Part shown: positions 34,263 to 35,855 of the stretch, in pieces | Numbering within the stretch: position 1 is the stretch's first letter | Layout of the letters: every line of letters starts with the position of its first letter | Source of the DNA: Acidimicrobiia bacterium | GTDB lineage: Bacteria; Actinomycetota; Acidimicrobiia; Spongiisociales; ZC4RG35 | Length of the DNA stretch: 64,000 nucleotides | Direction: 5' to 3' | Assembly (NCBI GenBank): GCA_965203555.1 | Contig: CBDBCY010000004.1 | Location: 128,001-192,000 of the forward strand | Notes under the pieces: generated by a model | Databases searched by the model: none | Told to the model about the DNA's origin: nothing | What the model saw: the letters and a program-made list of their open reading frames with translations, nothing else | Made by a program: the position numbers and the translations under genes

Positions 34263-35453
34263 GTGGGTAAGGTGAGGTTTGAGCGGGTGAAGCCGCATTT
34301 GAATGTGGGTACTATGGGTCATATTGATCATGGGAAGACTACGTTGACTGCTGCGATTACTAGGGTGTTGTCTGAGCGGGTTGGTGGGGTGAATGTGGTG
34401 ACTGGGTTTGATGATATTGATCGTGCTCCTGAGGAGCGTGAGCGGGGTATTACGATTCAGATTGCGCATGTTGAGTATGAGACTGTTTTGCGTCATTATG
34501 CGCATGTGGATATGCCGGGGCATGCGGATTATATTAAGAATATGATTACGGGGGCGGCTCAGGTGGATGGGGCGGTGTTGGTGGTGTCGGCGGTTGATGG
34601 TCCGATGCCGCAGACTCGTGAGCATGTGTTGTTGGCGCGGCAGGTGGGTGTGCCGCGGATTGTGGTGTTTTTGAATAAGTGTGATTTGGTGGATGATGGT
34701 GAGTTGTTGGATTTGGTGGAGTTGGAGGTTCGGGATTTGTTGACGGAGTATGAGTTTCCGGGTGATGATGTTCCGGTGGTGAGGGGTTCGGCGTTGTTGG
34801 CGTTGGAGGGTGATGTGGTGGCTGGTGATGGGGTTATGGAGTTGATGGATGCGGTTGATGGGTATGTTGATGTGCCGGTTCGGGATGTGGATCGTCCGTT
34901 TTTGATGCCGATTGAGGATGTGTTTTCGATTACTGGTCGGGGTACGGTGGTGACTGGTCGGGTTGAGCAGGGTGTGTTGCGGGTTGGTGAGGCGGTTGAG
35001 GTGGTTGGTTTGCGTGATACGCGTGGGTCGGTGGCTACTGGTGTGGAGATGTTTAGGAAGTTGTTGGATGAGGGTCGGGCTGGTGATAATGTGGGGGTGT
35101 TGTTGCGGGGGGTGGGGAAGTCGGAGGTGGAGCGTGGTCAGGTGTTGGCTGCTCCTGGGTCGATTTTGCCGCATGTGGGTTTTGAGGCGCAGGTGTATGT
35201 GTTGACGAAGGAGGAGGGGGGGAGGCATAATCCGTTTTTTTCGGGTTATCGTCCGCAGTTTTATTTTCGGACTACGGATGTGACGGGTTCGGTGTTGTTG
35301 CCTGTTGGGGTGCAGATGGTGATGCCGGGTGATAATGTGGAGTTGTCGGTGGAGTTGATTGCTCCGATTGCGATGTCGGTGGGGTTGGATTTCGCGATTC
35401 GTGAGGGTGGTCGGACTGTGGGGGCGGGTCGGGTCACCAAGATCACCAAATAA
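34263..35453 (+). CDS. tuf: Elongation factor Tu with extreme G/T codon skew
   Basis: [50 protein letters not shown] 34263 preferred as start. Confidence 0.98.
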
Positions 35454-35543
35454 CCCCAAACCCAAGAAGGCAAAGGATTGTGGACAACAACCGGCAAGGG
35501 CAAGTAGAGAATAAGCCGAGCAAGCGAGGACAGTAGAAGAGAC

Positions 35544-35855
35544 ATGAACGGTTCCCATAAGATCCGCATAAAGCTCAAGGCTTATGACCATCAGAGTGTG
35601 GATGAGTCAGCGCGCAAGATCGCTGCTACGGTTACTCGTACCCAGGCCAAAATAAGAGGTCCTGTTCCGTTGCCTACCGAGATCCACAGATACTGCGTTA
35701 TACGCGGACCCCATGTCGATAAAGACTCCCGGGAACACTTCGAGATGCGCATTCATAAGCGGTTGATCGATATCTTGGATCCAACCGCTAAAACGGTTGA
35801 TTCATTGATGCGCCTTGATCTTCCTTCCGGAGTGGAAGTAGAGATAAAGCTGTGA
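35544..35855 (+). CDS. rpsJ: 30S ribosomal protein S10
   Basis: [26 protein letters not shown]. Confidence 0.98.

What the first reader, a model, noticed from the sequence alone, without database searches (positions are those of the whole stretch)
34263..35545. EF-Tu gene rewritten in G/T: near-total loss of A/C at synonymous sites, flipping to A/C-rich at the 3' end
Seen: from ~34250 to ~35432 almost every codon ends in G or T (e.g. GTG GGT AAG GTG AGG TTT GAG...), whereas fusA and the ribosomal protein genes on the same strand are rich in C-ending codons. The frame is intact, but variable residues are pushed toward GT-coded amino acids (N-terminus [10 protein letters not shown] versus the usual AKAKFERTKP; many Val/Gly/Arg). 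At ~35435 the bias inverts abruptly (GTCACCAAGATCACCAAATAACCCCAAACCCAAG). Inference: this looks like local, strand-specific C>T and A>G pressure filtered by purifying selection. One route is repeated ssDNA exposure and deamination during gene conversion with a second tuf copy; another is a targeted mutator. Ordinary codon optimisation or HGT would not explain the polarity switch.
Basis: partly seen in the sequence, partly recalled or inferred. Interest (0 to 1): 0.82.

Follow-up and report, generated by a model that had tools for sequence, protein, structure and literature searches.

The report
Duplicate EF-Tu genes rewritten in G/T
The two identical copies of the essential EF-Tu gene in this marine actinobacterium use almost only G or T at silent codon positions, most likely because copy-correction between the duplicates passes through an unusual mismatch-repair enzyme, which would be a new way for DNA repair to reshape genes.

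Summary
In tuf (34263..35453, +), 390 of 397 codons end in G or T, against about half in fusA and rpsJ. Leu is TTG in 34 of 34 codons. Five of the 7 exceptions lie in the last six codons.

It is not a one-off. A second copy 36 kb away matches over 1225 bp with no mismatch. All 12 genomes of the genus share the trait.

Across Actinomycetota the trait follows two conditions together. One is two tuf copies kept at least 98% identical. The other is the mismatch endonuclease NucS.
- NucS present, copies homogenised: 38 of 39 genomes have GT3 of 0.64 or more.
- NucS not found, copies homogenised: 23 of 23 have 0.65 or less.
- Single or diverged copies: normal.

Polarised changes run from A/C to G/T 160 times and back twice. 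They include A>T and C>G, which deamination cannot make. This pattern is exactly the set of mismatches that published in-vivo work shows NucS leaves unrepaired.

Other repeats in this genome carry the same skew.

Best reading: strand-polar gene conversion biased toward G/T and filtered by NucS. My searches found no description of it. The mechanism is inferred, not demonstrated.

The parts
34243..35465 (+). Homogenised repeat unit shared with the second tuf copy (G000:C4:198381-199605, outside the window)
   Evidence: blastn of the two loci: 1225 bp, 0 mismatches, 1 gap. The same kind of tract, CDS -25..0 to -4..+89, is seen in 16 of 16 genomes with both copies assembled.
34245..34262 (+). G/T-rich leader with the Shine-Dalgarno-like AAGGGGG, conserved in the genus; the start codon is GTG
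   Evidence: 15 of 18 bases are G/T. The leader is conserved in 12 of 12 genus loci. Other genera start with ATG. M1V ATG>GTG in the polarised comparison.
34263..35453 (+). tuf (EF-Tu) coding sequence, 396 aa plus stop
   Evidence: Pfam GTP_EFTU 1.4e-60, GTP_EFTU_D2 and GTP_EFTU_D3.
34263..35432 (+). G/T-saturated part: codons 1-390, of which 389 end in G or T
   Evidence: Codon table and list of exceptions. GT3 is 1.00 in 7 of 8 bins.
35433..35465 (+). A/C-rich tail: last six codons, stop and 12 nt, at the edge of the conversion tract
   Evidence: 5 of 33 bases are G/T. It keeps the ancestral GTC ACC AAG ATC codons. In G002, G012 and G006 all differences between the two copies lie at nt 1170-1188; G009 has one of its six there.
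34080..35591 (-). 503-aa antisense ORF, a by-product and not a gene
   Evidence: Listed. Its first codon positions are the complements of the sense third positions (35591-34265 = 3 x 442). With G/T there, no antisense codon can start with T, so no stop is possible (read directly from the sequence).
32127..34244 (+). fusA (EF-G), the single-copy neighbour used as control
   Evidence: Pfam EF-G domains. GT3 0.504. The last 150 nt are 53% G/T.
35544..35855 (+). rpsJ (S10), the single-copy neighbour downstream
   Evidence: Pfam Ribosomal_S10 5.6e-37. GT3 0.558.
7526..9265 (.). One copy of a roughly 17-copy IS-like repeat showing the same G/T-to-A/C gradient
   Evidence: G/T fraction in sixths: 0.58 0.55 0.50 0.49 0.36 0.36.

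Best explanation
The two tuf copies evolve in concert by frequent gene conversion. In this lineage each heteroduplex between the copies is proof-read by NucS/EndoMS, which lacks a MutS partner here. NucS recognises only G:T, G:G and T:T mismatches and restores the resident strand in a short patch. A:C, A:A and C:C mismatches, and also C:T and A:G, escape it. [quoted passage not shown] A resident A or C can be converted to G or T. A resident G or T cannot be converted to A or C. G<->T and A<->C exchanges stay free. Repeated over evolutionary time this acts as a near-absolute drive toward G/T on one strand at every site selection tolerates. It affects all synonymous sites, the leader, the start codon and a number of amino-acid sites. 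The drive fades at the far edge of the homology tract, where conversion tracts of that polarity can no longer start, leaving or producing the A/C-rich tail. What is shown: the skew, the concerted evolution, the association with NucS plus homogenised copies, the direction and types of change, and the same skew in other repeats. What is inferred: that NucS is the agent, which strand is resident, and the tract geometry.
For: (1) Concerted evolution. The copies are 98.1-100% identical in 34 of 37 Acidimicrobiia genomes compared, while orthologues differ. (2) Copy state decides. In the class, 36 genomes with two full copies have median GT3 0.859 and 35 with one have 0.468. Three genomes with diverged copies (85-87% identical) have 0.43-0.51, one of them in the same genus as a 0.854 genome. 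Three of the 5 high-GT3 'single-copy' drafts hold fragments of a second copy at contig ends. Ten of 10 single-copy assemblies of 10 contigs or fewer have 0.39-0.52. (3) NucS decides. With NucS found and copies at least 98% identical, 38 of 39 genomes have GT3 of 0.64 or more: 33 Acidimicrobiia, 5 of family f46 in another class, and G212 as the miss. With NucS not found and copies at least 98% identical, 23 of 23 have 0.37-0.65: 17 other Actinomycetota, 5 gammaproteobacteria, and G030, which is the only low Acidimicrobiia case. NucS-positive single-copy genomes are normal, for example G168 of f46 at 0.43. (4) Spectrum. Against 11 normal outgroups, changes from A/C to G/T number 37, 18 and 105 at codon positions 1, 2 and 3; the reverse number 1, 1 and 0. 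They include A>T 11 and C>G 27. This equals the escape set measured in vivo for M. smegmatis NucS: G-G, G-T and T-T are repaired more than 500-fold and all other mismatches escape, the oligo base being replaced (PMC11551767, passages read). The repair patch is short and oligos work best on the lagging-strand template (PMC11551744, passages). (5) Within the genus, 136 of 182 biallelic tuf sites are G/T, against 26 of 380 in fusA. (6) It is not specific to tuf. Repeat windows are skewed about 20 times more often than unique ones: 9.2% against 0.45%. Thirteen of 32 repeat families have a left-minus-right G/T difference above 0.1, against 2.1% of 5000 unique control blocks. None of 6 E. coli IS families does. 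(7) Polarity follows replication rather than transcription. Co-oriented repeat genes reach GT3 0.68-0.75. The anti-oriented RCC1 gene and hydrolase paralogues reach 0.25-0.41. dnaA lies at the GC-skew minimum. tuf is co-oriented in 5 of 5 genomes where this could be told. (8) The boundaries coincide with the homology tract. (9) A nucS deletion impairs gene conversion in Haloferax (PMC11276520, passages).
Against: G212 has NucS and copies 99.3% identical, yet GT3 is 0.42. Its three congeners have one copy, so the duplication may be recent, but that is an excuse and not a test. The ranges touch: the NucS-positive minimum is 0.640 and 0.645, while three MutS-positive genomes of f50 reach 0.62-0.65. 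The NucS-positive cases fall in only two deep clades, so the genomes are not independent. G030 is only 85% complete, so its lack of NucS is not proven. Four anti-oriented genes with 97-100% identical internal repeats show little skew, GT3 0.39-0.46. Singletons in IS copies show roughly equal per-site rates in both directions, and in one family a 2.4-fold bias that by itself could give its skew, so the test is inconclusive. The model needs one polarity to win by about 100 to 1 over 97% of tuf, which is assumed. The two-step route A>G>T cannot be excluded for the transversions. No enzyme of this clade has been assayed.
Confidence: 0.6

Rival explanations
1. Another repair or recombination factor that is co-distributed with NucS makes gene conversion between repeats biased toward G/T on one strand, and NucS is only a marker. 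Candidates are a different mismatch glycosylase, or a peculiarity of the recombination pathway in MutS-less Actinomycetota.
For: The dependence on homogenised copies and the repeat-wide skew fit any heteroduplex-limited bias. The NucS association rests on two deep clades. G212 shows that NucS plus identical copies is not sufficient.
Against: Nine Actinomycetota genomes that lack both MutS_V and NucS, with copies at least 99.6% identical, have GT3 0.40-0.46. So it is not the absence of MutS. The observed allowed and blocked changes match the published NucS table one for one.
Confidence: 0.15
2. Deamination of exposed single-stranded DNA (C>U, A>hypoxanthine) on the coding or leading strand, during recombination between the copies, at R-loops of this highly transcribed gene, or at stalled forks.
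For: The strand and the direction are right for C>T and A>G, which make up 122 of the 160 polarised changes. G/T-rich strands from ssDNA deamination are established for leading strands and for the mitochondrial H strand (my own knowledge). One IS family shows a 2.4-fold excess of A/C-to-G/T singletons at its G/T-rich end.
Against: There are 38 A>T and C>G changes. fusA in the same operon is unaffected and the edge of the skew sits at the homology border. Single-copy tuf genes are normal in 10 of 10 near-complete assemblies. NucS-free lineages with homogenised copies are normal in 23 of 23. Anti-oriented repeat genes are A/C-rich on their coding strand, which argues against a transcription-based version. 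Most IS families show no singleton bias.
Confidence: 0.12
3. Selection on the tuf mRNA or on its translation favours G/U-ending codons. Examples would be avoiding C because actinobacterial RNase E cuts 5' of C, or avoiding toxin-nuclease motifs.
For: tuf is usually the most codon-biased gene in a genome, and extreme bias at about 390 sites is possible under strong selection (my own knowledge). The cleavage preference of RNase E is recalled, not checked.
Against: fusA and the ribosomal protein genes do not share the bias. Single-copy and diverged-copy relatives lack it. It changes residues conserved in at least 10 of 11 outgroups (18 sites) and the start codon. It is present in IS-like repeats and in unrelated repeat genes, with the opposite sign on anti-oriented genes.
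Confidence: 0.05
4. Horizontal transfer from a donor with G/T-ending codons, or a chimeric assembly.
For: None found.
Against: The nearest EF-Tu relatives are Acidimicrobiia. No other gene in the genome has this usage. There are 12 independent assemblies, and contigs of two DNA runs join both flanks.
Confidence: 0.01

Closest known systems
GC-biased gene conversion (gBGC) in eukaryotes and bacteria
   Same: A repair bias in recombination heteroduplex acts like selection. It drives base composition at neutral and weakly selected sites and can fix slightly harmful amino-acid changes.
   Different: Here the favoured bases are G and T (keto), not G and C. The drive is strand-polar and confined to intragenomic repeats. 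It lowers the GC of tuf to 0.54, against 0.62-0.68 in relatives. The defining weak-to-strong bias is not met, since C>T is the commonest change.
Concerted evolution of tufA/tufB by gene conversion (Salmonella, E. coli; Paulsson et al. 2017, PMC5485169, abstract read)
   Same: Two tuf copies in the fusA-tuf and tRNA-tuf-rpmG contexts are kept nearly identical, with tracts bounded by the gene.
   Different: In MutS-bearing gammaproteobacteria the homogenised copies keep ordinary codon usage: GT3 0.48-0.61 in 5 of 5.
NucS/EndoMS non-canonical mismatch repair (PMC11551767, PMC11551744; passages read)
   Same: The set of mismatches repaired in vivo (G-G, G-T, T-T) predicts exactly which changes are blocked here. 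Short-patch repair and the lagging-strand-template preference of annealing oligos give the per-site and strand-polar behaviour.
   Different: Those papers treat replication errors and oligo recombineering. None that I read describes an evolutionary drive on duplicated genes. The NucS of this clade is known only as a gene.
Substitution bias in paralogous regions of M. tuberculosis (preprint PMC13061034; passages read)
   Same: It reports a distinct spectrum in paralogous regions (T>C/A>G enriched). It suggests that recombination-associated repair asymmetry involving NucS could reshape their composition.
   Different: It proposes reduced NucS action during recombination. It reports no strand polarity, no keto drive and no saturation. 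The present case is orders of magnitude stronger.
Repeat-induced point mutation (RIP) in fungi
   Same: A base-composition change that hits only duplicated DNA.
   Different: RIP is enzymatic C>T on both strands and destroys genes. Here the change is strand-polar, includes A>G, A>T and C>G, and the genes stay intact and essential.
Replication-associated GC/keto skew of leading strands
   Same: It is the same sign (G+T excess on the leading strand) and is seen weakly in unique DNA of this genome, 0.518.
   Different: In the repeats it is amplified: 0.72 in tuf, against a maximum of 0.629 in 2854 unique 1-kb windows.

Membership tests
EF-Tu (tuf) | GTP_EFTU, domain 2 and domain 3 architecture, about 396 aa | tested here: met
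   Pfam E-values 1.4e-60, 9.7e-18 and 4.4e-35.
Concerted evolution by gene conversion | Paralogues within a genome are more alike than orthologues between genomes, with identity confined to a tract | tested here: met
   0-22 differences per about 1.19 kb within 34 Acidimicrobiia genomes, while species differ by 2-6% in protein within the genus. Tracts end within -25..+89 nt of the CDS.
GC-biased gene conversion | Net weak-to-strong (A/T to G/C) fixation bias | tested here: not met
   C>T is the commonest polarised change: 107 of 160. GC of tuf falls to 0.54.
ssDNA deamination or transcription-associated asymmetry | Transitions only (C>T, A>G), on the non-template strand, independent of copy number | tested here: not met
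   38 transversions A>T and C>G. Single-copy tuf is normal. Anti-oriented repeat genes are A/C-rich on the coding strand. Two-step paths are not excluded.
Translational codon optimisation | Same preferred codons in other highly expressed genes of the genome | tested here: not met
   fusA, rpsG, rpsJ and rplC have GT3 0.49-0.57, with C-ending codons common.
Repeat-induced point mutation | C>T on both strands of duplicated DNA, with inactivation | tested here: not met
   Strand-polar, with four kinds of change, and the frames are intact.
NucS/EndoMS-dependent process | A nucS gene is present and MutS is absent in the genome | tested here: met
   NucS_N plus NucS_C at G000:C4:1017027-1017377. No MutS_V match in a 95%-complete genome.
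NucS/EndoMS-dependent process | Effect present only where NucS is present | tested here: met
   38 of 39 against 0 of 23 genomes at GT3 of 0.64-0.65 among those with homogenised copies. One counter-example, G212. Kin are not independent.
NucS/EndoMS-dependent process | The blocked changes are those that create G:T, G:G or T:T in heteroduplex | tested here: met
   G/T to A/C 2 against A/C to G/T 160, with G<->T and A<->C free, compared with the published table. The choice of resident strand is an assumption.
NucS/EndoMS-dependent process | Loss of the bias in a nucS mutant | not testable with these tools
   Needs genetics in a cultivable NucS-positive actinobacterium.

The most novel reading that the evidence does not exclude
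NucS/EndoMS imposes a general, strand-polar, keto-directed biased gene conversion on all intragenomic repeats of organisms that rely on it, meaning many Actinomycetota and possibly NucS-bearing archaea. It is strong enough to rewrite an essential gene at every silent site and at some amino-acid sites. It leaves a footprint that records replication direction and the age of concerted evolution.
Probability: 0.45. Interest if true: 0.92.

Novelty: new variant of a known kind. Interest (0 to 1): 0.88.

Why it matters
Biased gene conversion is known as a GC-favouring force. This would be a second kind, favouring G/T on one strand and explained by the known substrate range of a repair enzyme.

Consequences if true:
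- A non-adaptive process can fix hundreds of synonymous changes and at least 18 changes at conserved residues in one of the most constrained proteins of the cell. This misleads codon-usage, dN/dS and expression-level inference.
- It explains why tuf breaks gene callers here. A 503-aa stop-free antisense frame arises from the composition alone, and my own ORF caller chose it.
- It gives a testable in-vivo read-out of NucS action on recombination intermediates, a point still open in the NucS papers I read.
- It offers a sequence footprint for finding long-standing concerted evolution and replication polarity in uncultured genomes.

Tried and rejected
- Antisense gene. The 503-aa ORF 34080..35591(-) is forced open by G/T at sense third positions, so I rejected it as a gene.
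- Long-range pairing of the A/C tail with the G/U leader in the mRNA, and avoidance of C for RNase E. I noted both as ideas and never tested them. I dropped them once the trait proved to depend on copy state and NucS and to occur in unrelated repeats.
- Singleton test on six IS families, to tell mutation bias from fixation bias. With only 4-8 full copies per family the result is inconclusive.
- My crude ORF caller picked the antisense frame of tuf and of one binding-protein gene. I corrected the orientations by Pfam. The background GT3 figures come from that caller and are approximate.
- RNA. Contigs of two metatranscriptome runs cover 34249-35455 of a sister strain. Contigs cannot show level, ends or strand, so nothing is claimed beyond presence in RNA libraries.
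- Literature. Searches for NucS or EndoMS with gene conversion or biased gene conversion, tuf with gene conversion and codon usage, strand-asymmetric biased conversion, keto or GT skew with concerted evolution, and Acidimicrobiia with codon usage found no description of this phenomenon. Subscription journals and supplements were not searchable.
None of the unpublished genomes flagged was fetched.
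Full report
**What is there**

The window is G000:C4:128001-192000. The stretch 34263..35453 (+) encodes a complete EF-Tu with all three Pfam domains. It lies in the usual rpsG-fusA-tuf-rpsJ order.

Its third codon positions are A2 C5 G229 T161, so 390 of 397 are G/T. 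The neighbours on the same strand have 0.49-0.57. Every synonymous choice maximises G/T. Leu is TTG in 34 of 34 codons. D, H, N, Y and C codons all end in T. Only TTC at codon 377, and five of the last six codons together with the stop, break the rule.

The 18-nt leader is 83% G/T. The last 33 nt of the shared tract are 15% G/T. The spacer to rpsJ has 6 T in 90 nt.

Among 21,340 ORFs of 80 aa or more in the genome, only two exceed GT3 0.9. Both are tuf.

**A second copy and concerted evolution**

A second tuf lies 36 kb downstream at C4:198401-199588 (+), behind tRNA genes and before an L33-like ORF. It matches over 1225 bp with no mismatch and one 2-bp gap. The match runs from the fusA stop to about 12 nt past the tuf stop.

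In all 16 genomes where I first compared both copies, they were 98.7-100% identical over a tract that hugs the CDS. In 21 further pairs compared later, 18 were 98.1-100% identical and three had diverged to 85-87%.

All 12 genomes of the genus have GT3 of 0.975-0.992. All share the conserved G/T leader, a GTG start and the same A/C tail.

Contigs of two DNA runs from different studies reproduce the sequence. They show both flank contexts branching at the tract ends. Assembly error and HGT are therefore excluded. The nearest relatives by record title are Acidimicrobiia.

**The trait depends on copy state**

In a sample of the class:
- 36 genomes with two full-length copies have a median GT3 of 0.859, and 30 of the 36 exceed 0.7.
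- 35 genomes with one full-length copy have a median of 0.468, and 5 of the 35 exceed 0.7.

Those five exceptions are drafts of 50-190 contigs. Three of them hold fragments of a second copy at contig ends.

Assemblies of 10 contigs or fewer with a single copy have 0.39-0.52 in 10 of 10 cases.

Three two-copy genomes with ordinary usage (G107, G068, G049) turned out to have copies only 85-87% identical. G068 belongs to the same genus as G047, which has identical copies and GT3 0.854. So homogenisation matters, not mere duplication.

Genomes with intermediate values show a decline from 5' to 3'. An example by quarters is 0.97 0.93 0.84 0.70. Single-copy genes are flat.

**The trait depends on NucS**

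G000 has nucS with both domains and no MutS_V match.

| Condition (copies at least 98% identical) | Genomes | GT3 |
|---|---|---|
| Gammaproteobacteria, MutS found, NucS not found | 5 | 0.48-0.61 |
| Other Actinomycetota, NucS not found (8 of these 17 have MutS) | 17 | 0.37-0.65, with 10 at 0.46 or less |
| Family f46 (another class), NucS found | 5 | 0.68-0.79 |
| Acidimicrobiia, NucS found | 33 | 0.64-0.99 |
| G030 (Acidimicrobiia), no NucS candidate, 85% complete | 1 | 0.565 |
| G212, NucS found, copies 99.3% identical | 1 | 0.42 |

G168, a single-copy relative in family f46, has 0.43. G030 is the one low Acidimicrobiia case with identical copies. G212 is the one clear counter-example. Its three congeners have a single copy, so the duplication may be young.

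The totals are 38 of 39 against 0 of 23. The medians are 0.857 and 0.458 over the 38 and 19 genomes known at the time of that calculation. These genomes are kin, so no P value should be read into this.

**Direction and kind of change**

I compared G000 against the consensus of 11 Acidimicrobiia with ordinary tuf.

| Codon position | A/C to G/T | G/T to A/C |
|---|---|---|
| 1 | 37 | 1 |
| 2 | 18 | 1 |
| 3 | 105 | 0 |

The changes include A>T (11) and C>G (27) as well as C>T (107) and A>G (15). Eighteen residues conserved in at least 10 of 11 outgroups have changed, among them M1V by ATG>GTG.

Within the genus, 136 of 182 biallelic tuf sites are G/T. The figure for fusA is 26 of 380.

This is the pattern expected if the heteroduplex between the copies is screened by an enzyme that removes only G:T, G:G and T:T mismatches in favour of the resident strand. 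Then A/C to G/T is allowed, G/T to A/C is blocked, and G<->T and A<->C are free. That specificity, more than 500-fold in vivo, and restoration of the resident base are reported for M. smegmatis NucS (PMC11551767, passages read). Short-patch action and the lagging-strand-template preference of annealing oligos are reported in PMC11551744 (passages read). A nucS deletion impairs gene conversion in Haloferax (PMC11276520, passages read).

**It is not peculiar to tuf**

- 6.7% of G000 is repeated. Of the repeat windows, 9.2% have |G/T-0.5| of 0.15 or more, against 0.45% of unique windows.
- 33 of the 45 most skewed regions are multi-copy.
- Nearly all IS-like blocks run from G/T-rich at the left end to A/C-rich at the right on either strand, for example 0.73 0.62 0.61 0.49 0.42 0.29.
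- 25 of 32 repeat families have a positive left-minus-right difference. 13 exceed 0.1, against 2.1% of 5000 unique control blocks.
- Six E. coli K-12 IS families show -0.10 to +0.055.
- Genes with internal or tandem repeats follow replication, not transcription. Three fused double binding-protein genes and a dehydrogenase paralogue, all co-oriented with replication, have GT3 0.68-0.75, while the maximum among unique genes is 0.714. The anti-oriented RCC1/SLH gene has 0.36, and 0.25 in its repeat part. Anti-oriented hydrolase paralogues have 0.33-0.41.
- dnaA sits at the GC-skew minimum.
- tuf is co-oriented with replication in G000 and in 4 of 4 congeners where this could be told.

**How the geometry could work (inferred)**

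Suppose conversion tracts start anywhere in the repeat and extend toward the side where the fork enters, with the lagging-strand template as the resident strand. Three things then follow:
- The drive is flat and high over most of a co-oriented gene and falls to zero within one tract length of the exit border. This matches the decline seen in intermediate genomes.
- A minority of events of the opposite polarity then wins in the last few tens of bases. This matches the A/C tail, which is also where all the copy differences of three genus genomes (G002, G012, G006) lie.
- For mobile repeats that meet forks from both sides, the two profiles subtract. The result is gradients anchored at the ends with a neutral middle, as observed.

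**Rivals**

- Deamination of ssDNA explains the strand and the transitions. It does not explain the transversions, the dependence on copy state and on NucS, or the sharp homology-bound edges.
- Selection on the mRNA fails for several reasons. Neighbouring highly expressed genes lack the bias. Conserved residues and the start codon are altered. Unrelated repeats share the skew.
- A co-distributed factor other than NucS cannot be excluded.

**Weak points**

- The G212 counter-example.
- The touching ranges, 0.640 against 0.651.
- Only two deep NucS-positive clades.
- Four anti-oriented repeat genes with little skew.
- An inconclusive singleton test.
- The absence of any experiment.

**Novelty**

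My seven literature searches found no report of G/T-rewritten tuf genes or of keto-biased, strand-polar gene conversion.

The nearest is a 2026 preprint on M. tuberculosis paralogues. It notes a T>C/A>G excess and speculates on NucS (PMC13061034, passages read).

Supplements and subscription journals were not available to me.

Noticed in passing
G000:C4:2036300-2038600(+), 2313799-2315979(+), 1196613-1198841(-), 1073189-1075411(+), 1533620-1535893(+), 2050156-2052198(-), 2276663-2278822(-): At least seven genes of about 680-770 aa consist of two tandem halves of about 1 kb that are 84-100% identical. Pfam was run on three of them and shows doubled periplasmic binding-protein domains (Peripla_BP_4, TctC, Peripla_BP_2). 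This is an unusual recurrent fusion or duplication of solute-binding proteins.
   Followed up: partly
window 34263-35453 and G000:C4 as a whole; G002, G003, G004, G007: The tuf and ribosomal-protein cluster lies only about 200-240 kb from the inferred replication terminus in G000. It is similarly close in 4 of 4 congeners with one-contig chromosomes (dnaA position plus half the length), not near the origin as in most bacteria.
   Followed up: partly
window 34080-35591 (-): The composition forces a stop-free 503-aa antisense frame over tuf. My simple GC3-based ORF caller chose it over the real gene, so automatic annotation of this clade may mis-call tuf.
   Followed up: yes
G000:C4:1919351-1919850 and C4:1161601-1162100: These are the two most extreme short skewed regions. 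One is a window with G/T at 0.13. The other is a 27-bp-type tandem repeat translating to SAVAVWSSW units. Both are internal tandem repeats of unknown function.
   Followed up: no
G000:C3:3769-20716 versus C4:2095529-2112439: A 16.9-kb stretch is present twice at 97.8% identity, on contig C3 and on the chromosome, with no G/T skew. It may be a strain variant, an episome or a recent duplication.
   Followed up: no
G249 (family f80), loci L240 and L260: This genome has NucS and tuf copies 96.6% identical. GT3 is 0.57-0.58 and rises from 5' to 3' (0.50 0.46 0.63 0.73), the reverse of the usual gradient. It may reflect partial conversion tracts or a different orientation.
   Followed up: no
Draft genomes of the order and class: Many draft assemblies break exactly at tuf, with N- or C-terminal fragments at contig ends. 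Copy number of tuf in MAGs is therefore systematically under-counted.
   Followed up: partly
Class sample, family f16 (12 genomes of about 1 Mb) and f17, f20, f24, f27, f34: NucS was not found in 18 of 111 Acidimicrobiia genomes, including all 12 streamlined genomes of about 1.1 Mb. All of these have a single tuf with A/T-rich third positions.
   Followed up: no
window 34095-34244: The last 50 codons of fusA have GT3 0.64, against 0.50 for the whole gene. This slight rise next to the homology border may be chance.
   Followed up: no
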